A stretch of DNA of 63,602 nt, filler included, from Neolecta irregularis DAH-3 (lineage: Eukaryota): assembly GCA_001929475.1 (NCBI GenBank). It is 6 parts of 6 records of this genome, joined end to end, with 100 filler letters (N's around TTAATTAATTAA, not from the genome) between each part and the next. Parts side by side here need not be neighbours in the genome. Positions count along the whole stretch, not along the records: positions 1 to 23,315 come from LXFE01000156.1; 5 more parts are not named here. One strand, given 5' to 3'. Both the position numbers and the translations under genes were made by a program. Below the pieces are notes generated by a model, which did not search any database, was not told where the DNA came from, and was given only the letters and a program-made list of their open reading frames with translations. Below, piece after piece: positions 2,679-40,500 of the stretch (positions are counted from its first letter, which is position 1; each line of letters begins with the position of its first letter).

Positions 2679-3171
2679 ATGTCCCGCTCCCCCTATTTCC
2701 ACCCCTCCCCCGATCAATCCATCTCCTCCTATTGCAATACTGTCCTCCTTCTCTGCTGCCAGATCCCGCCCGGCCACGTCGCCTCCTACAAGGCCATCGC
2801 CCTCGCCCTCCATTCCTCTCCCCGCGCTGGTCTGCCCTTTCTCTCCCCCCTGACCTTGCAGTAGGAAACGCTCTCAAGCACAACCCCTTCTCCCCAACTG
2901 TCCCCTGCCACAGAGTAATCGCCACAGACGGCTACATCGGCGGTACCCCGCCCTTTAATTCCTTCAATTAATTCGCTCAGGCTTCAAGGGCGGATGGGGC
3001 ATCCACTCCCACTCCTGCAAATCAAAACTCCTTCTCCTCGAAAATGAAAACGTCCATTTCGACAACAAAGGTCGCATCATCAATCCTAAATTCTTTACCG
3101 CCTTTGACACTGCTGCTTTGTCCACGCGTGTCCTTCCTGTACACAAAGCGTCGCGCCCCTCCGATAATTAA
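2679..3171 (+). CDS. O6-alkylguanine-DNA alkyltransferase (MGMT/Ogt DNA-binding domain), 3 exons
   Basis: QIPPGHVASYKAIA..SPRA|VGNALKHNP..VPCHRVIATDGYIGG|FKGGWG; two introns of about 30-40 nt (near 2830-2860 and 2943-2980). Confidence 0.85.
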
Positions 3172-3421
3172 CATTATCCTACATACATACATACATTCAA
3201 TGAATTAAAACATTACCATGACTATAAATATATAAATATATAATTTGATCCATGTTTTGTTGATCCTACCTATTGTTATACTGCCATGGTTGGAATCTGA
3301 CCCGTTGGACATGATTCTCTCCACCAGGCAATGTCGCCTTGAATTTTTTATGAATAGATATTCCATATGAAATTAAAATATTAGTCGTGGCTATGAATAC
3401 AATGTAACTCTTTATTATTAA

Positions 3422-3517
3422 TTATCCGATACGATGGTTGATAGTCTTTATCTGAGGGTTGGATAATCTTTATCACGTTGTTGGAGAAACTTTATCAGAC
3501 AGTTGGTTATATCAGAC
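3422..3517. promoter_or_regulatory. Cluster of GATA elements upstream of NFS1
   Basis: TTATCCGAT, TGATAG, TTATCTGAG, GGATAA, TTATCA, TTATCAGAC and ATATCAGAC within 96 bp. Confidence 0.45.
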
Positions 3518-3656
3518 GATCGCTATTTATAAGTAATAGACTCGCTGTAAAAATAAAGTCAAAACATTACACATTACATAATATGGTGGTGGAGATTATT
3601 CTTCAACTTCATATCTGATTTCTGCCCTCCAATATTCATTCAGTCGCCACCTCGCA

Positions 3657-5292
3657 ATGTTCCCTTGTCGAATGCTCTCCCGCCGTCTCCGTCCTCTAAT
3701 GAGGACAATGGTGACTGTCTCCCGGACAAGTGAAGCAACAGTCCAAATAGGCAAGGGCGTCTCCTTGTCTCCTATAAACGCAGCAATCTCCCAATCTACC
3801 ATTTCTCAATCTGGAAATCGTCCAATATATCTCGATATGCAAGCGACGACACCAACAGATCCCAGAGTCCTCGATGCCATGCTCCCGTTTTATTCAGGTT
3901 TATATGGAAACCCACATTCGCGCACACACGCTTATGGCTGGGAATCTGAAAAAAGTGTGGAAAAGGCCCGAGAACATGTTTCTGCGTTAATCGGCGCCGA
4001 CCCCAAAGAGATTATATTCACATCAGGAGCAACTGAATCAAACAACGCATCAATAAAAGGTGTCGCTCGATTCTATGAATCTAAAAAGAAACATATAATC
4101 ACTACAAACACCGAACACAAATGTGTCCTTGACTCTTGCCGAGTCCTTCAAGACCAAGGTTTCGACGTGACCTTTCTTCCCGTGCAATCCAACGGCCTCG
4201 TTTCACTAAGCGATTTGGAAGCTGCTATTCGTCCAGATACAAGTCTAGTCTCGATAATGACTGTCAACAATGAAATCGGGGTAATTCAACCAATTCAGGA
4301 AATCGGTTCAATCTGTCGAAAACATAAAGTATTCTTTCATACAGACGCTGCCCAAGCCGTAGGGAAAATACCGGTTGACGTGAATAAATTCAACATTGAT
4401 TTAATGAGTATCTCAAGTCATAAGATTTATGGACCAAAAGGTATTGGGGCAGTTTACGTTCGCAGAAGACCTCGAGTTAGAATTGAACCACTTATTAGTG
4501 GCGGCGGTCAAGAACGTGGATTAAGAAGTGGAACATTGGCGCCTGCTCTAGTCGTTGGTTTTGGCGAAGCTTGCAAGATTGCAAAAGAGGAACTCGAGGT
4601 ATTTTCTTTTTCTTCTTTTTTTCTGGCAAAAGAGCTTGATGATGATAATGGGTGCCAACCTTTGTGCTAATAAACCTCTTTTTTCCCGTGTGGACTTTAG
4701 GTTTATCATGCGCTTTTGTGCAGGGGTTCCGAGAGACTTTTCGTTTGCTCTCTTTTACTTTTCACTTTGTTTTATCTACTGACGCAGTAGTATGACCATC
4801 AACATGTTTCCCGATTATCCAAACATCTTTTAGAGGGTCTCACATCAATTCCACACGTCGTTTTAAACGGAGACAAAGACAGCCATTATCCTGGCTGCGT
4901 AAACGTATCATTTGCTTATATCGAAGGAGAATCACTCCTCATGGCTCTCAAGGTATATCTTGTCTTGATCTCCCGTTTGTAACGTATGCAGGATGTAGCG
5001 CTGAGTTCAGGCTCCGCTTGTACATCTGCATCCCTTGAACCTTCCTACGTCCTCAGAGCACTCGGCGCAGACGACGATATGGCTCATTCATCCATCCGTT
5101 TCGGCATTGGTCGTTTCACTACTGAAGCCGAAGTACTTGTCCTCTTTTCTATTCACGAGCTAATCAGTTTAGATTGACCACGTCGTAAATTTGGTAAAGA
5201 GTAAAGTCGACTTTTTAAGAGAATTGTCTCCGCTTTGGGAAATGGTGCAGGAAGGTATAGATCTCAAATCAATTCAGTGGAGTCAGCATTAA
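3657..5292 (+). CDS. NFS1: Mitochondrial cysteine desulfurase, 4 exons (introns 4599-4790, 4953-4991, 5133-5172)
   Basis: [12 protein letters not shown]-lysine motif [28 protein letters not shown]-terminal IQWSQH; Arg-rich presequence. Confidence 0.97.
4627..4741 (+). ncRNA. Candidate intronic box C/D snoRNA, predicted U6 2'-O-methylation guide
   Basis: C box ATGATGA 4639-4645, D-like CCGA 4729-4732, closing stem AAAAG..CTT / GAG..CTTTT; guide TTTTGTGCAGGGGTT 4714-4728 is antisense to U6 GGCCCCUGCACAAGG. Confidence 0.6.
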
Positions 5293-6011
5293 TTGATTCT
5301 TTTCAACTATGTTTTTCTTTGTATAGTCTTGTTTCTGCTTTTTCGGGTGGGTATGAAAAAATGTGTATCGTATTATTCTCGGGATAGCATTTGTGATATC
5401 TTCACGAAAAGATTGACGGAAGGAAAATTCTCGTCTGTATACGACATATCAACATCTCATCTTGAATTGTAATATTAAATATCATTTTATATTCGAGCGA
5501 TAGCCATATTTCTTGTATCGGAAACTAAAGATGGATTGGAATTCATGGTTTAAAGGTGGTTGTGATATGACGTTTTGATAATATGTGTGCACTTAATACA
5601 TACATTCACAAGTCAAGTATCACGAATTACAACAGAACCGCTAACCCTAATCACTTTGTTATATGCAGTTCAAACAGACATAGATGTCGAGTTACCGATA
5701 CATGGTGCTTTGGTGCTCGCTGTTTACGACACTTAGTATGGGAAGGAAGCATGTAAAACGTCATCGACAACCGTGAGTATGTATACATTCAACACCAACT
5801 ATGTACCCATTTTCACTCGATGCCTCGGTCTCGAGGTTCTTCGTCCATCTCATCTGTTTCGATGCCTACATCAGAGTTTAGCTTTGAAGAGATACTTATT
5901 CGTAAAACGGTTTATCGAGAGCTGGCGCTTTGTTGATTTATTTAGGATATCGAGGCTATATCTCAAGCTGACGAACCATCGAGCGATGATGATTCTGTTG
6001 AAATCGGTTCT

Positions 6012-6680
6012 GTGGAGAAATTACTCGAGTCTTTAAAGATTACTTTGTTGCGTGAAGATGACGAACCGGAATACGTTGATTCTTTTGTGATGGCGACAGA
6101 TACGTCTTTTGCAAACGATTTATCAGTAGAAAATATCTCTCAAATTGATAAAGCATCGATCGGTAGCCTTCGAACATTAATTCAAGTCCTCTACAACGAC
6201 ATTCAGAAATCCAGAAATCGAGAGAAAGAACTTGAAGAGAATCTCAAAGGTACAACAACAGTAATTGAAAAGCTTCAAATCGGAAAAACTAAACTTGCGG
6301 AGAAATGCGTGGATTTAGGGCACCAAGTCTTCCAACTCGAGAGGCTAGTCGCACATTTCAGTAACACACGGGCCGTTATGAAAGGATACCGCAATTTGAT
6401 GATTGGTCAATATGACAACGCGCGGATAATTAAAGCGTTGCAAGATCGAGTCCAGGAGTGGACGGTTGAAGTATACCAATTTCGTGAAGCAAGTGAGGCC
6501 ACCATTCGGTACCTTGAACAAAGATGTCGAAATCTCTCGGTTTATGGCGATGAAATGAAAAAGCGGCTAGACCAAGCGCTTTTGTACGCCTTTAGGACCC
6601 CATTGGAGCAGAGGCAGGGAGCTCATTATCTCGAGGAGAAACCTCGGTTCATCAAAGATTCTGCCGGATCGCTGTTGTAA
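6012..6680 (+). CDS. Hypothetical coiled-coil protein (last exon; upstream exons probably from about 5684)
   Basis: 222-aa open frame with heptad-like composition; splice-like signals upstream. Confidence 0.55.
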   Translation: MEKLLESLKITLLREDDEPEYVDSFVMATDTSFANDLSVENISQIDKASIGSLRTLIQVLYNDIQKSRNREKELEENLKGTTTVIEKLQIGKTKLAEKCVDLGHQVFQLERLVAHFSNTRAVMKGYRNLMIGQYDNARIIKALQDRVQEWTVEVYQFREASEATIRYLEQRCRNLSVYGDEMKKRLDQALLYAFRTPLEQRQGAHYLEEKPRFIKDSAGSLL

Positions 6681-7074
6681 GAAACCATTGTGTTGGATGG
6701 ATGGCCCGTATTTGAAGAGCGTTATAGATAAAGTACCTCTCATAGCGATATTGTGTGATACCTATTTGAGAGTCGTAGTTGAAGTAGGTGATTAATTTGT
6801 CTGATTACCGAAGTTGGGCTTATTATTAGGCCAAGAAGCACTTTTTGAAGGTGTTTTTTTCCTGTTTAAAGACCAGCCAATAAACACATTCCAGTATTCC
6901 GAACAAGAAATAGTTTCAGAATTTATCCATGGCTGAGCAAATCATGACGTTACCAGGAACACCGAAAAAAACGCACGTGTAACGAATAAGGCAAAACGCT
7001 TACATAATGTACTCCCATTGCGCCCAGCTTGCATTTCCTGATTTGCGGCCTCTTATTTCGCATTCGCCACAAAA

Positions 7075-34546: not shown

Positions 34547-37500
34547 TCAACGGGAATATTCCTCAACTGATCGGGGCCTGAGGGTATATTGAAGGGTTGA
34601 AAACAATTTCTCGAGCTAAGTGTTAATTAAAAGGGTTATAGAGAGGATTACCTCTGGAGTAGATTTGGTGAAGGGAAGTTTCCAGAAGTTGTAGGATTCG
34701 TTTTTGAGAAGCTCGGTAAAGGTAATCAAAAGGCCCCATGGATGCGGTCGATTACAAATTAGTCGCTCAAGGAGGACACTAAGTTTAGGATAAGTTTATA
34801 ACAGAATACAAACCGAGTGATTTGCTCTCGAGCGTAGATGTCGTCTGTATTGCTGTTGGTGGTGGAGAAGAGAGTTAATAATATACAGACGGCGCAGTAA
34901 GTATGACTATTCGGGAATCGGAGTTGATCGGTGACAGCAGAGAGAAAGATGAACCGACCTAAAGAGTTAATGAGCAGGAATTGAATCGGGGGAATGCCTT
35001 CAGGATCAAGCTCGTTGTAAAATGTCTGCAGGAGAGTGAGGGGTGGGGATTGCCATTTTGGCCTTTTGAGGAAATTTCCTAATAAAAGATTCTCGTTCTT
35101 GGCGTGTTGTTCAATCTTCATAATGGAATAAAGAACCAAGGCATTAATGAGAGTGACATCGTGCTTGGGGCTTTGCCAGGGCTTTGAATGTTCAGGGATC
35201 GGTTCACGTGCCCTTTTCAGGAATTGTCTAGCAGTCTCAGTTGAGGAAGAGGCTGTCCCAGGCGCAGTAAGAAAATTCTCAAGATCCTTGATATCAATTC
35301 CGCGACTCTTAAAGATGGCTTCGAAATCGGCGGCGATCGGAGGAGCTTGTGAAATCTCTGGCAAGCGATCCACTTTAAAGCCAGGTTGAAACGGGTCCGG
35401 GAGATTCGAATTTCTCGCGTAAGAGCTCAGGATAATGTTTCGAAGTTGTACACATTTCATTGAAAGGGGTTCACACAGGGAGAAATGATTTGAGAACACA
35501 AAATCAGGGAAATCGTAAACCAGGACCATGAATAATCGAATCACTCCAGTGTAAAAGGCTTTAATCGCTTCGTCTAGAGGTGATCCGCTCTCTGCGATTT
35601 TTTCAGAAAGATATTGTAAAAGAATTTGCAAAAGCTTGAGGTACTCTTTTTGCCGCTATATATGTTATCTGCAGCTCTTGGATGGTAACTTACATTGGGA
35701 TGATTGCTGTCGAGCATCTTCGGCATGTAGCTTCTATGTGTAATTGCCTGTACCCAGCCAAATGAGTTGCCAGGCAAAAGGTGTGGTTCCATCCAGAGGA
35801 AGGCCTGGGTGATGGGTCCATAAACGTCAATGTTCCGTGCTTCAAGCTCCCTCTCGTGAACTGAAAAATCATGCAACAGAGTACTGAAGAACCGGAAGAT
35901 CGCGCGTTGATGAAACATATCATCCCGAGTCTCGTGAAAATTAATACTAACATAAACGGTAATTGCCAAAATTCTTTGAAGATAGGGCGGTTCGGATTCT
36001 GCTTCTTGGTTGTTGTCGGATTCGCCATGAAATCTTACCAAACAGGCGATCATCTTAGCGTAGTTGTCAATGAACACGAAGGATTGAGCTGTGAATGATT
36101 GTTTCACGAAAAATTCGAGACTATACTGGAAGGCATTTCGGAGAAACATCGTTGCCATATTGACATCTGTAATAATCTTGGTTTGTTGCAACTGATAGAC
36201 GAAAGCCAAAAGTGGAGTATCGTTGTGTTCACGGACGGAGCGTTGTACACACTTATTCCAATCTGTAACGAATAGGTGAAGGAGTTTGTCTTTATCGTCA
36301 TCTGGTTGTTCTTGCGAGAGAGAGTTTTCGCCATTATCGGATCGAAATGTTCCAACGACTTCGCTAACGAGAGGGTGTGTATCTTCTCGCTCGGTGACTC
36401 CTTCGAGAGCTTCAATAGTATTAGCAAACTGAATTCGTGTGACAATGGCCCGAGGCCCAAGGACGAGAATCTGAAGCAACTCAGCGGCAAACAAGACAAA
36501 ATGGCGGCTTCGAGTCTGGACAGCCCTTGCAAGACTGATATCGAGATCAGGCAGACTGATCAGGGTGGTATTGACTAACGTCGAAATAACTGGAGCATCA
36601 AGTTTTCGCTGAAATCAGCCTTTCGCTTGTAACGGATTAAACCTCATCACTCAAGTCCAAAAGCCAAATCTGAACTTCTCTGCCAACTCTTGGCGCAATT
36701 TCGCAAAATTTTGTCAAGAGATCCGCATAAGCCTCACGTGCTAGCGGAATTTCGCTACTTTTAAACAATTTCGTACAGGCTTGCTGACAGACAGTAAGCA
36801 TGTAATCATCTCTCTGTGTTCGTGCGACCAAATCCTTGGCGAATTGAACAATCTGCTGAACTTGCTGAGGCAATTCGTGCTCGAGAGGAAGGTGGAAGTA
36901 AGAACGACCAGTATCCGGGATTTCCTTCGCAAACTTCTGGAATTCAGCAACAACATTCTAGGTTATTAGAACCACAACAGGAAGTACACATACAGTAAGA
37001 CGTTCGATGGAAGCTTCAATAGTCGCAGCGGGTAATCGTTGCTCATATGCGGAGGTTGTGGGTCCGCCGAAAGCAGCAACTTCATTAGCCATTTCCATTG
37101 AAGCATTCAAGCGAGCTTGTTCGTTAGTGATTTTAGCAGCAATCGCTGCATTGCCCATATCTGCAAATTTGTCGTACAAAGATAACTGGACAGCTGTTAA
37201 ACCTCCAGATGCAAGCCTCAATGGTAATGGCAAGCTCATGGCATACTGCGAAGCGGCTGAATCAAAGAACGGTTTACCGGTTTTTGCCTCTCGGTGTCTT
37301 CGTCTTCGGTGGTATGCAGAAGTAAGAGCGTCGTCGATATCTTTAACAGCTTTGCTTTGCGCAACCTTCCTGATCACATTGCAAATTAAATCGATATTGT
37401 CGTTAATGATTCTACTGACTGCATTCTCTGGGACTGTTTCCTCGTGGACCCCATCGTTTGAAAGAAGAAGTTTGAAATTATTTCCAAGATTGATCTTCAA

Positions 37501-40500
37501 GGCTTCCTTGCCAGTGACATCGCTGAGACTTCCGGAGAGTTGTTCGATCATTTGATGCGCAGCATGACGCATACGCTCTTCGCTTCCCTCCATCGCGAAA
37601 TCTTTAATCACAAGCTCGCGAGTCGTAATACTGGCAATGGTAACACTCTTTTCCACGATAGGCACGATCACCTCTCGAATTGTTCGATCAACTGCTTTTG
37701 AAATAACCGAGAGGATATCCGAATGTGGAATATAAGCCAACGCGCTTGAATCTAGAACAATTTGACTGACAATATCGAAGGTGGTCATATAATCCGGGGG
37801 GAGGTACACTTCTTGACTATGAATAGCGACATCAAGCCCATCCGGTAAATTCAAGCCGTAGATCCCAGGTCGAGCTTGGAGCAGCGTTGTAGGTATGATG
37901 TCATTTAATTCAAGTTCGAGAGCTTTACAGAGAAGTTCAATATCGAATTTTAGCATTAATTTGAGCTCCGCTTCTTGATAGAACTCGACCAAGGTTTTGA
38001 TCATGGCCATCGTCCAGGGATTCGGGGGCTTGAAGACCTTTGATTTAGTAACTTGTTCAAGTATTTTTGTAACGAAGGGAATGACGACGATGAGCCTGTC
38101 CGTCTCGAATCCTTCTAGTAGAAGATCTTTGATAGACAGGTTTCGGTGTTTAATTGGTTTATTACGCGCGAGGGTAAGTCCCCCAAGCCACGATCCTAAA
38201 TTCTTGAGCGCAAGCTTCTCTGTGGATTCTGTGAGAGTGGATGGACAGTTTAGGAGTCGGATTATGGTTGCATATGTTGCATCTAGGATAGCTGTATAGA
38301 GGTGTTTTTTATTCAAAGTCTCGAGAACTTGAAGATAAAGCGGGTGCTGATTTGGTTCGAGCCGGGCTCGGTCGACAAAGATATGGTCCGCCGCCCATCG
38401 CACATATTTATCATCCAACAGATTCTTAATTTCCTTAACTTTGGCATCAACGTTACTGACTGATGTGTTATTGATACAGAATATGACTTTGTCCTGGGCA
38501 GCTTCTGGAAGATCTTCTTGGGGTAATGGTAATGCATCACTTGCATCTCGAGCAATGGACTGAAAAGGCGGTTGCTGGGGGGTTTCCGGTTCTTGGGACT
38601 CTCCTCCTTGATGAAGGCTGGGAGGAGAAGCAACTCTTTGAAATGGAATACGATCGCCGGAAGGCTCAATCTTATCGATGATTTCGGGATAATTCTCCTG
38701 AAGGCTTTGAATGGCAAGGATGTTAGCCATATATTGGGGAAACTCGTGGACTCTATCAGCGAATTGGTGCAGAGCCTGTACTCCAAATTTATACATATTC
38801 GATTCAGGAGGTTGCTGAAGGGCTTTGTACACGCACCTGAGGGCGATGGCCTGAGGTATTTCAGGTAGAAGTCTAAAGTGGACAAGTGACCCAAACAAAA
38901 CGGCGGTAACTGCGAGTGCCGGGGTTGGATATTGATAGAAGAATCGGTATTCGTCAAACAAACCATGGAGCATATGAGCGAGGACATCATGGTCGGCAGG
39001 GTCATGTGATCTTTTATACCCCCTTAATTTCAGGATGATACGGTTTATGGCGGAGGTGTCATTAGTGTTGTTGTTATTGTACAATTCCTTGTAATCTTGG
39101 TCGACTTCAGCTTCGACATCGGGTGGGAGAAGGTTAGAATTGCTTGCGTTGACTGGACGAATGATCGAACCAGACTCGTCGAATTCGATATTGAACAATC
39201 GTGGATAAGTCTGGATACACAGGTTTTGGACCTCATCACAGTGTTCGTACAGGGGAAGAGGAATGTTCCTGAAAATGATCAGCTTTTGAGTGAAAAGAGA
39301 ATGCTCGCTTCTTGTTTAACGTCGGCCGCAATAGGATAGCAACGGTCTCAGTTTGCAATGCGATTGTCGTAGGCTCTTGATGAGGTCGTTCTCGCTGCTC
39401 CGTTTCTGCCATTGCCTTGACTCGAAGAAATTCAAGAACAGCTGTAACAAATTCCTCTTTATGAGGTCCCTTCATTTCGCCTCGGACATATTTCTCAAGA
39501 TTAAGATATTCTCTTCGAGATGCGAGGGAAGAAAGCTCTAACGAAAGCTCGTATGGTCGGATTTGAAGAATAGCCTCAAGAATGCGAAGCTCCTGAGCTA
39601 TGTCTAAAACTCGAGAAGCCTGCATACGGTCCTGCTCAAGGATGTTTCGAACCCGAGTGAAGAGAAAGTCCGGAGCAGTTTGGAAGAGTTTGTAGAAGAC
39701 CATGAGATTGATAGGTTGGCTGTGGAAGAAATGGAGGAAAAGTCTGCTGATGAGAGCCTCGTGGTGAGGAACCCAAGGTGCCTATATTGCTTAGTAGACA
39801 TACATGTGTGAAGAAAATCTAATACCGCAAGTTGAACGCCGCCCAATAAGACCAAGTCGGGTGCCGCATATGCAACGTCCGATAGAAAATCGTCTCCTTC
39901 TGGTAGTGTTTCGGGGTTTGTAAGCAAAAAGATACGCTCAACCAGATCAAGGGAATTGAAGGTGCCCGTTTCAAGGCTAGAAATCATCGCTTTAACCGGC
40001 GCCGGCGCATCAGAAGACTCTTCCATGGAGACGATTCGGCGGCCTGGATACTTGGACAAATCAAAGATTTCGGGAGGTAGCTTGGTAAATGCTCGAAGAA
40101 TAGATAGCTGGGCGCGTTGATGAGTCCATTGACCCCAGAACTCCAAAATAGGGAAAGCATCCTTATGTCGGAGAGCGGACCTCATAATCTCAAGGATTAT
40201 GGCAAGGCCTTGAGGTTCATAAATAATGAAATCCGATCGATCAAACCCGAGGACTACCGACGCCCAATTCAGATTTGGAAGCTTTCGAAGTAAGACAAAA
40301 CAAAGCGAAAGATGGACATACCAAACGAGCAATTTCAACCCCAATTTGTTCGGGATTGAATGCCATATTTCCCTGTTCCGCTTCTTTCACAAGTAGTATG
40401 AGTATAGCAACAATGGTCTTTTCGCTTGGACGGACATCGTCATCGATGCTATTAGAGAAAAGTCCATAGATTTTGGGCGATATTTCTGAAGTACCACTAC

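What the first reader, a model, noticed from the sequence alone, without database searches (positions are those of the whole stretch)
4627..4741. NFS1 intron 1 carries a box C/D-like RNA predicted to guide methylation of the U6 snRNA ISL
Seen: the intron (4599-4790, 192 nt) is 4-5 times the local norm. It contains ATGATGA (C box) and TCCGA (variant D box) arranged as a kink-turn closed by CTT/GAG and AAAAG/CTTTT. The 15 nt before the D box read TTTTGTGCAGGGGTT. Known: the U6 ISL is GGCCCCUGCACAAGG in fission yeast, which pairs over all 15 nt (four G-U). The D+5 rule points to the third C of CCCC, equivalent to human U6 C62, the site guided by SNORD94, which carries a similar GCAGGGGU element. 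Inference: an unannotated fungal U6-guide snoRNA hosted by the Fe-S/tRNA-thiolation gene NFS1.
Basis: partly seen in the sequence, partly recalled or inferred. Interest (0 to 1): 0.85.

Follow-up and report, generated by a model that had tools for sequence, protein, structure and literature searches.

The report
Intronic snoRNA aimed at U6 snRNA
The long first intron of the fungus Neolecta's NFS1 gene very probably encodes a small nucleolar guide RNA whose guide sequence matches the catalytic stem-loop of the spliceosomal U6 RNA, which makes it a candidate for a fungal U6 guide that has not yet been found.

Summary
The window is Neolecta irregularis. A transcript contig joins 4596 to 4789, so the 192-nt NFS1 intron 1 is spliced out. 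The next two introns are 39 and 40 nt.

The intron holds these parts:
- C box AUGAUGA
- D-like box CCGA
- a 3-nt bulge and a two-part closing stem
- a 15-nt element directly 5' of CCGA

That element pairs 15 of 15 (11 Watson-Crick) with the quoted U6 motif. It is the only such 15-mer in the window.

An orthologous NFS1 intron in a Dothideomycete-like metagenome contig (L012) has AUGAUUA ... GCAGGGGUU + AUGA at the same spacing. C-box position 6 and D-box position 1 change together, G/C to U/A. L012's other guide fits the published N. crassa CD4 row (18S-Cm49, 13/0, D', intronic).

The same U6 core fits 8 of 62 read-through protein tails that reach far enough. It fits none of 31 Helotiales-centred ones. 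So the RNA family is widespread, but the U6 guide is restricted to some lineages.

Porat 2023 could not find the S. pombe guide for U6 C55-57.

Not shown: the stable RNA, Neolecta's own U6 sequence, and the methylation itself.

I rate it a probable new fungal member of a known kind.

The parts
3657..4598 (+). NFS1 (mitochondrial cysteine desulfurase) exon 1 coding part
   Evidence: Pfam Aminotran_5, E 3e-80. 100% identical to the protein named for Neolecta irregularis DAH-3. Covered by the spliced X2 contig from 3624.
4599..4790 (+). NFS1 intron 1, 192 nt, host of the candidate snoRNA
   Evidence: GU...UAG in phase 0. The X2 contig joins 4596 to 4789, with a 2-nt ambiguity. The intron position after 'AKEE[LM]x' is shared by 229 unspliced read-through ORFs among 341 fungal NFS1 proteins.
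4628..4632 (+). outer terminal stem, 5' arm (AAAAG)
   Evidence: Pairs with CUUUU 4737-4741.
4635..4637 (+). inner terminal stem (kink-turn stem I), 5' arm (CUU)
   Evidence: Pairs with GAG 4733-4735 (C-G, U-A, U.G). It is followed by the 3-nt bulge G4638 A4639 U4640.
4639..4645 (+). box C (AUGAUGA)
   Evidence: Matches the consensus RUGAUGA. The orthologous position in L012 reads AUGAUUA.
4673..4704 (+). internal hairpin (AAACCU ... AGGUUU) between degenerate D'-like and C'-like regions
   Evidence: Present in the minimum-energy and centroid folds. The fold as a whole is no more stable than shuffles (z = 0.15). No convincing C'/D' boxes were found.
4714..4728 (+). D-side antisense element UUUUGUGCAGGGGUU
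   Evidence: Pairs 15 of 15 (11 Watson-Crick, 4 G.U) with the quoted U6 ISL motif, and is unique in the window. Duplex energy -24.5 kcal/mol. The core GCAGGGGUU is identical in L012.
4729..4732 (+). box D variant (CCGA)
   Evidence: The GA needed for sheared pairs is kept. C1 can pair with G6 of box C. Position 2 is C instead of U. L012 has AUGA at the same distance from GGGG.
4733..4741 (+). 3' arms of the terminal stems (GAG, A, CUUUU)
   Evidence: Complement of 4635-4637 and 4628-4632.
4779..4783 (+). likely branch site CUGAC, 37 nt after the end of the candidate RNA
   Evidence: Read from the sequence. This is an inference from the usual fungal CURAY branch motif, which I recalled.
4791..4952 (+). 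NFS1 exon 2
   Evidence: ORF and protein match. X2 contig piece 4789-4950.
4953..4991 (+). NFS1 intron 2, 39 nt
   Evidence: Joint that skips 39 nt, GT..AG, in the X2 contig.
5133..5172 (+). NFS1 intron 3, 40 nt
   Evidence: Joint that skips 40 nt, GT..AG, in the X2 contig.

Best explanation
NFS1 intron 1 of Neolecta irregularis encodes a box C/D snoRNA of about 105-115 nt (4627-4741).

Proposed mechanism (all steps inferred):
1. After splicing, the lariat is debranched and trimmed back to the snoRNP.
2. The core of the snoRNP is a kink-turn formed by box C (AUGAUGA) and a variant box D (CCGA), closed by the CUU/GAG and AAAAG/CUUUU stems.
3. The 15 nt directly 5' of box D pair with the 5' strand and loop of the U6 snRNA internal stem-loop.
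4. Fibrillarin then 2'-O-methylates the U6 nucleotide opposite the fifth guide position. That is the third C of CCCC, equivalent to human C62 and S. pombe C56.

The RNA belongs to a family housed in the same NFS1 intron across Ascomycota. The Pezizomycotina members carry a D'-side guide for 18S rRNA C49 and fit N. crassa CD4. Only some of them keep the U6 guide.

Shown here: the splicing of the intron, the sequence anatomy, the complementarity, and the recurrence in other fungi.
Inferred: accumulation of the RNA, assembly of the snoRNP, and the methylation.
For: 1. The intron is spliced and is 4.8 times the size of its two neighbours.

2. Kink-turn geometry is exact apart from U.C in place of U.U: stem I, a 3-nt bulge, tandem GA/AG, and a G6-C1 pair.

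3. The guide pairs 15 of 15 with the U6 motif, is unique in the window, and gives -24.5 kcal/mol.

4. L012 is a contig whose NFS1 is closest to Dothideomycetes. Its orthologous intron has AUGAUUA ... GCAGGGGUU-AUGA with the same 2-nt spacer. Among 34 GCAGGGG sites in the window plus 80 loci, on both strands, only these two have a C-like box within about 100 nt upstream.

5. Box covariation. C-box position 6 / D-box position 1 reads:
- G/C in Neolecta
- U/A in L012
- non-G/A in 5 tails
- G/(C or U) in 1 tail
- undetermined in 2 tails

6. The core at the right distance fits 8 of 21 long tails. Permuted or random 7-mers fit at most 3 of 21. The spacing to box D is the same in all ten sequences, so the predicted target nucleotide is the same.

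7. L012's D' guide has 13 Watson-Crick matches to the 18S 5' region. This fits the N. crassa CD4 table row: 81 nt, 18S-Cm49, 13/0, D', intron, detected by cDNA and northern. The family is therefore very likely an expressed snoRNA.

8. The site is plausible. Human U6 C62 is guided by SNORD94. S. pombe U6 is methylated at C55-57, and no guide for those sites was found.
Against: - No RNA evidence exists for the snoRNA itself.
- Neolecta's own U6 sequence could not be obtained, because no genome is held.
- Box D is CCGA, not CUGA, and its effect on snoRNP assembly is unknown.
- No Rfam family matches.
- The predicted fold is no more stable than shuffled sequence (z = 0.15).
- The U6 core is absent from most relatives that could be assessed: 54 of 62 tails, including all 31 Helotiales-centred ones. 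Several Dothideomycete-like tails read GCAAG... where the core should be.
- In L012 the complementarity is only 9 nt (7 Watson-Crick plus 2 G.U), or 12 nt if box D bases are counted.
- Four other fungal contigs have introns of only 36-72 nt at this site, with no snoRNA.
- The tail evidence is indirect. It shows that degenerate back-translations are compatible with the motif. It is not nucleotide sequence.
Confidence: 0.6

Rival explanations
1. It is a genuine, stable box C/D snoRNA of the NFS1-intron (CD4-like) family, but the D-side element does not direct U6 methylation. It would be an orphan, act on another RNA, or bind U6 without modifying it.
For: - The D-side guide is evolutionarily labile in this family. 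Helotiales-like tails carry a different conserved sequence there ('LLACKLRLP*'). Other tails read GCAAG....
- The published function of the likely N. crassa member is 18S-Cm49 only.
- The variant D box might weaken catalysis at the D site.
Against: - Eleven consecutive Watson-Crick pairs to a site known to be methylated in two other eukaryotes are very unlikely by chance.
- The core and its exact distance from box D recur in at least two further lineages.
- Neolecta's copy has no 18S guide that could otherwise explain why it is retained.
Confidence: 0.22
2. The Neolecta element is a decaying relic of the family's snoRNA. It has lost the 18S guide and the canonical D box, no longer accumulates, and the intron simply remains long.
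For: - CCGA instead of CUGA.
- No recognisable C'/D' boxes and no 18S-C49 guide.
- Several fungi have lost the element from this intron altogether.
Against: - The C box is perfect and both terminal stems are intact.
- A 15-nt uninterrupted complementarity to U6 would not be expected to survive neutral decay.
- Non-canonical D boxes (AUGA) are the norm in the relatives, and there they covary with box C.
Confidence: 0.13
3. Chance: an unusually long intron that happens to contain box-like words and a U6-complementary stretch.
For: - The box arrangement alone is no more frequent than expected (4 in the window).
- The first-stage scan covered very many windows, so rare coincidences will turn up.
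Against: The orthologous intron of a distant fungus has the same boxes, the same 9-nt core and the same spacing. Controls with permuted motifs also fail to match.
Confidence: 0.03

Closest known systems
SNORD94 (U94), human box C/D RNA guiding U6 Cm62
   Same: Same class (box C/D, intron-encoded). Same predicted target nucleotide, the third C of the U6 ISL CCCC run (for the human function).
   Different: No detectable sequence or covariance-model similarity. Different host gene. Variant D box. Common descent is not shown.
Neurospora crassa snoRNA CD4 (Liu et al. 2009, PMC2780460, Table 1)
   Same: The L012 relative matches the published description: intronic, about 80 nt, and a D'-side guide with 13 matches that places 18S C49 at the fifth position. 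The Neolecta element sits in the same intron of the same gene as L012's and shares its box architecture and D-side core.
   Different: Neolecta lacks the 18S guide. The paper lists no D-side target for CD4. I did not see the CD4 sequence or its host gene, because the supplements are closed. Equating CD4 with this family is an inference.
S. pombe snoZ30 (mgU6-47) and sno530
   Same: Fungal box C/D RNAs shown to guide U6 2'-O-methylation. sno530 is also non-canonical in its boxes.
   Different: They guide A41 and A64, not the C run. The guide for C55-57 was explicitly not found.
Predicted fungal U6 guides snR53/CD_11 and Nc_CD_54 (Canzler et al. 2018, PMC5824354)
   Same: Conserved, computationally predicted U6 targets on the 'second' guide of snoRNAs that also serve rRNA.
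   Different: Different U6 positions (alignment positions 62 and 70). They use D'-side guides. Neolecta was not in that survey: 0 mentions in the main text.

Membership tests
Eukaryotic box C/D snoRNA | Box C (RUGAUGA) near the 5' end | tested here: met
   AUGAUGA at 4639-4645.
Eukaryotic box C/D snoRNA | Box D (CUGA) near the 3' end, able to form tandem sheared G.A pairs with box C | tested here: inconclusive
   CCGA at 4729-4732. The GA and the C1-G6 pair are kept, but position 2 is C. Relatives have AUGA with a compensating AUGAUUA box C.
Eukaryotic box C/D snoRNA | Terminal stem bringing C and D together, with a 3-nt bulge (kink-turn) | tested here: met
   CUU/GAG, bulge GAU, plus the outer stem AAAAG/CUUUU. 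This geometry is read from the sequence, not from an energy model.
Eukaryotic box C/D snoRNA | Antisense element of 10 nt or more ending next to box D, with a known or plausible modified nucleotide at the fifth position | tested here: met
   Pairs 15 of 15 with the U6 ISL motif. The fifth position lies opposite the third C, which is methylated in human and lies within the methylated C55-57 of S. pombe. Neolecta's own U6 was not available.
Eukaryotic box C/D snoRNA | Accumulates as a stable small RNA bound by Snu13, Nop56, Nop58 and fibrillarin | not testable with these tools
   Only two runs were listed, both kept as contigs.
Eukaryotic box C/D snoRNA | Conservation of the boxes in orthologues, with compensatory change | tested here: met
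   L012 at the nucleotide level, and 6 informative tails.
SNORD94 (U94) family | Sequence and structure similarity to the curated family model | tested here: not met
   No Rfam match at gathering score in the window, nor at E up to 10 in 4500-4900.
SNORD94 (U94) family | Guides 2'-O-methylation of the U6 C62-equivalent | not testable with these tools
   Predicted from base pairing only.
N. crassa CD4-type snoRNA | D'-side guide with about 13 matches that places 18S C49 at the fifth position | tested here: not met
   Absent from the Neolecta element. Present in L012 and compatible with 81 of 229 tails.
N. crassa CD4-type snoRNA | Same genomic home (orthologous NFS1 intron) | tested here: inconclusive
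   Neolecta and L012 share the intron position. The host gene of N. crassa CD4 itself is given only as 'Intron'.

The most novel reading that the evidence does not exclude
The NFS1-intron box C/D RNA is the missing fungal guide for 2'-O-methylation of the C run in the U6 internal stem-loop. It was present in the ascomycete ancestor. It uses covarying non-canonical C/D boxes (AUGAUGA/CCGA or AUGAUUA/AUGA), which is why canonical searches, including the one in fission yeast, missed it. In Pezizomycotina one RNA serves both 18S C49 and U6. The two guides differ at only 3 of 11 positions, which suggests that one arose from the other by duplication and target switching.
Probability: 0.35. Interest if true: 0.7.

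Novelty: new member of a known kind. Interest (0 to 1): 0.6.

Why it matters
U6 is the catalytic RNA of the spliceosome, and its internal stem-loop binds the catalytic metals. In human cells its ribose methyl groups are placed by box C/D guides.

In fission yeast the C run of the stem-loop is methylated, but the authors who mapped this stated that they could not find the guide. They suggested it might be non-canonical (PMC10484740, passages read).

This finding offers a concrete candidate from a relative in the same subphylum. It has non-canonical boxes, a defined host intron and relatives in culturable fungi. That makes the question directly testable, by searching Taphrinomycotina genomes with a model of this family, deleting the element and mapping U6 methylation.

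It also suggests a second, unreported function for a published Neurospora snoRNA family.

Tried and rejected
- **Rfam:** no family at gathering score in the window. At E up to 10 there were only chance-level hits in 4500-4900 and in the L012 intron.
- **Own genome and U6:** no whole genome is held for this window, so the species' U6 could not be searched. The window itself holds no U6.
- **Sequencing runs:** no RNA holder was listed. Two runs were listed, both kept as contigs. The X2 contigs do not cover 4608-4741. I do not count this as evidence either way.
- **Metagenome scan with the NFS1 protein:** 80 loci were kept. Most are intron-less or bacterial. Only 5 have an intron at this site (L003, L006, L007, L008, L012), and only L012 has a long one.
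- **First regex for the guide in the loci:** it required TG[TC] before GCAGGGG and therefore missed L012. This was corrected.
- **MAFFT alignment of the two introns:** it paired Neolecta's D-side guide with L012's 18S guide. I rejected this as homology, because GCAGGGGUU plus the spacing to the box is identical on the D side.
- **Possible second guide on the D' side** (CUUUGUG + CUAA, which could place the U6 A64-equivalent at position 5): only 7-8 bp and no credible D'/C' boxes, so I did not adopt it.
- **Other C/D-like hit at 39107-39239 (-):** it lies inside a 785-aa ORF and was rejected as chance.
- **Literature:**
  - No paper in the top 10 joins nfs1 and snoRNA.
  - (RiboMeth-seq, pombe, U6 snRNA, snoRNA, from 2019) listed 3 papers, none reporting a guide for the C run.
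  - The claim 'not in print' rests and on main texts only. Supplements are closed.

Full report
**What is there**

The window comes from Neolecta irregularis or a near-identical strain. Exon 1 of the gene at 3657-4598 is 100% identical to the protein that NCBI names 'Cysteine desulfurase, mitochondrial [Neolecta irregularis DAH-3]', and it is a class-V aminotransferase by Pfam.

The reading frame breaks after ...AKEELE at 4598 and resumes with YDHQH... at 4791. A public run that the index labels 'DNA?' behaves as a transcriptome. One 1605-nt contig lies on 3624-4596, 4789-4950, 4990-5132 and 5173-5499 without a single differing letter. Intron 1 (4599-4790, 192 nt) is therefore spliced out in vivo. 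Introns 2 and 3 are 39 and 40 nt. I did not survey other genes.

**Anatomy**

Reading 5' to 3' inside the intron:
- a U-rich stretch
- AAAAG (4628-4632), then AG
- CUU (4635-4637)
- G, then AUGAUGA (4639-4645)
- 68 nt that include a 6-bp hairpin, AAACCU/AGGUUU
- UUUUGUGCAGGGGUU (4714-4728)
- CCGA (4729-4732)
- GAG (4733-4735), then A
- CUUUU (4737-4741)

CUU/GAG forms stem I. G4638-A4639-U4640 is the 3-nt bulge. G4641-A4642 can make sheared pairs with A4732 and G4731. U4643 faces C4730, where the consensus has U.U. G4644 pairs with C4729.

This is box C/D kink-turn geometry with one departure. The element starts 28 nt after the 5' splice site. It ends 49 nt before the 3' splice site and about 37 nt before a CUGAC that is the likely branch site.

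**Is it more than chance?**

The boxes alone are not. A loose scan found four such arrangements on both strands of the window, roughly what I estimate by hand. One of the others lies inside a 785-aa ORF.

The guide is. It is the only 15-mer on either strand that pairs at all 15 positions with the quoted U6 motif (11 Watson-Crick, 4 G.U), and the 11-nt core occurs once. The duplex is -24.5 kcal/mol. Only 0.03% of 6374 sampled window 15-mers reach -20.

I could not verify the motif for fission yeast or obtain Neolecta's U6, because no genome is held. The same 15 nt are the complement of a published mosquito U6 probe, so it is a genuine U6 ISL sequence in at least one eukaryote.

**Relatives**

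Many metagenome-derived NFS1 'proteins' are exon 1 read through into the intron. 229 of the 341 proteins returned by three searches continue with V(S/R/G)... right after AKEE[LM]x. The intron position is therefore shared widely in Ascomycota.

One metagenome locus gave nucleotides. L012's NFS1 is closest to Dothideomycetes. It has a 186-nt intron at this site containing:
- AAUGAUUA
- then ACAUGCAUGGCUU-G-CAGA
- then AAAGCAGGGGUU-AUGA

The 9-nt core GCAGGGGUU and its 2-nt distance from an xxGA box are identical to Neolecta's. Of 34 GCAGGGG sites in the window plus 80 loci, only these two have a C-like box upstream.

The boxes covary. Neolecta has G at C-box position 6 and C at D-box position 1. 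L012 has U and A. These two positions form the Watson-Crick pair of kink-turn stem II.

I back-translated the read-through tails into degenerate codons and tested motif compatibility. This test is weaker than nucleotide sequence.

| Tails | Count |
|---|---|
| Unspliced read-through tails | 229 |
| Compatible with a C box | 118 |
| Compatible with the 18S-type guide after the C box | 81 |
| Extend at least 66 nt past the C box | 62 |
| Of those 62, compatible with GCAGGGG-NNNN-GA at the right distance | 8 |

By search, the 8 split as follows:
- 2 of 11 in the Neolecta-centred search
- 6 of 20 in the Dothideomycete-centred search
- 0 of 31 in the Helotiales-centred search

In the stricter set of 21 long tails the real core fits 8, while permuted or random 7-mers fit at most 3.

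In the eight positives, D-box position 1 is A in five, always with a non-G at C-box position 6. It is C or U in the one with G. It is undetermined in two.

**Results against broad conservation**

- Helotiales-like tails carry a different, well-conserved D-side sequence, read as 'LLACKLRLP*'.
- Several Dothideomycete-like tails read GCAAG... where the core should be.
- Four fungal contigs have only 36-72-nt introns here.

The RNA family is therefore widespread, but the U6-type guide is confined to some lineages. These are Neolecta, a set of Dothideomycete-like fungi, and at least one more distant lineage (P0109, 64-72% identical to the others over 200 residues).

**Link to a published snoRNA**

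L012's first guide has 13 Watson-Crick matches to the 18S 5' region. I checked the motif only as a 15-mer that co-occurs with '18S' in 34 papers (search listing). With CAGA as box D' it places the first C of AAGCC at the fifth position.

Table 1 of Liu et al. 2009 (PMC2780460, section read) lists 'Nc CD4, 81 nt, cDNA and northern, 18S-Cm49, 13/0, D', no homologues in S. pombe, S. cerevisiae, Arabidopsis or human, Intron'. It gives no D-side target. The fit is close enough that I take the Pezizomycotina element to be the CD4 family. I did not see the CD4 sequence or its host gene, because the supplements are closed.

If this is right, the family is an experimentally detected snoRNA. The Neolecta copy lacks the 18S guide.

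**Mechanism**

The most likely reading is a standard intronic box C/D snoRNP whose D-side guide pairs with the U6 ISL and directs methylation of the third C.

The site is plausible:
- Passages of PMC6894857 state that SNORD94 guides human U6 C62, and that SNORD67 and SNORD10 guide the other two Cm.
- Porat et al. 2023 (PMC10484740, passages read) report methylation at S. pombe U6 C55, C56 and C57. They state that they could not identify a guide for these sites and suggest it may be non-canonical.
- The known or predicted fungal U6 guides address other positions.

The offset of 6 between human and S. pombe numbering follows from A47/A41 and A70/A64 in those papers. The human U6 numbering of the C run itself is recalled.

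**Confidence**

- About 0.85 that this is a real member of a box C/D family.
- About 0.6 that it guides U6 methylation in Neolecta.

Main rivals:
- A real snoRNA whose D-side element has no such function (0.22).
- A decaying relic (0.13).
- Chance (0.03).

**Novelty**

Guiding U6 Cm62 is a known function in vertebrates, and the RNA class is standard. This is therefore a new member of a known kind, not a new mechanism.

Three points are new as far as I could search (and the main texts of four snoRNA papers):
- a fungal candidate for the U6 C-run guide
- its covarying non-canonical boxes
- the possible second function of the CD4 family

Supplements of Liu 2009 and Canzler 2018 could hold a prior prediction that I could not see.

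Noticed in passing
window 36560-36650, minus strand: A canonical-looking box C/D arrangement: GUGAUGA ... CUGA ... UGAUGC ... CUGA with a 4-bp terminal stem. It lies between two minus-strand ORFs (35574-36614 and 36637-36957). Rfam gives only chance-level matches to archaeal sR32 and sR35 (E 0.68 and 5.7). It may be a second unannotated snoRNA.
   Followed up: partly
window 39107-39239, minus strand: C/D-like words with a 3-bp stem inside a 785-aa ORF (36958-39315). Most likely chance.
   Followed up: yes
L012 1942-1959 and 1988-2003: The 18S-type guide (AUGCAUGGCUU) and the U6-type guide (in Neolecta GUGCAGGGGUU) differ at 3 of 11 positions. MAFFT even aligned one to the other. This could reflect guide duplication and target switching, or only the likeness of the two targets.
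   Followed up: no
proteins P0240-P0263 and relatives (Helotiales-like), read-through tails: The D-side region of the NFS1-intron snoRNA is conserved as 'LLACKLRLP*' in one frame across many species. This implies a conserved guide for an unknown target that is not the U6 core.
   Followed up: no
proteins P0006, P0007, P0009, P0011, P0069 (83% identical to Neolecta exon 1): These tails show a canonical C box (read as DDD or VMM) but neither the 18S guide nor the U6 core within the roughly 78 nt that can be read. The taxon is unknown and the internal sequence differs from both Neolecta and L012.
   Followed up: partly
run X2 on window 3000-7000: The run is labelled 'DNA?', but its contigs are spliced (three NFS1 introns removed), so it is a transcriptome of the same organism. 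Its 65% share of sampled words is explained by the missing introns, not by divergence.
   Followed up: yes
window 4646-4670: The D'-side region contains CUUUGUG followed by CUAA. It could pair with U6 GCACAAGG and place the A64/A70-equivalent at position 5. With only 7-8 bp and no credible D'/C' boxes, this is speculative.
   Followed up: partly
L003, L006, L007, L008 (NFS1 intron at the same site): In these fungal contigs the orthologous intron is only 36-72 nt and holds no snoRNA, so the element has been lost from, or was never in, this intron in some lineages.
   Followed up: yes
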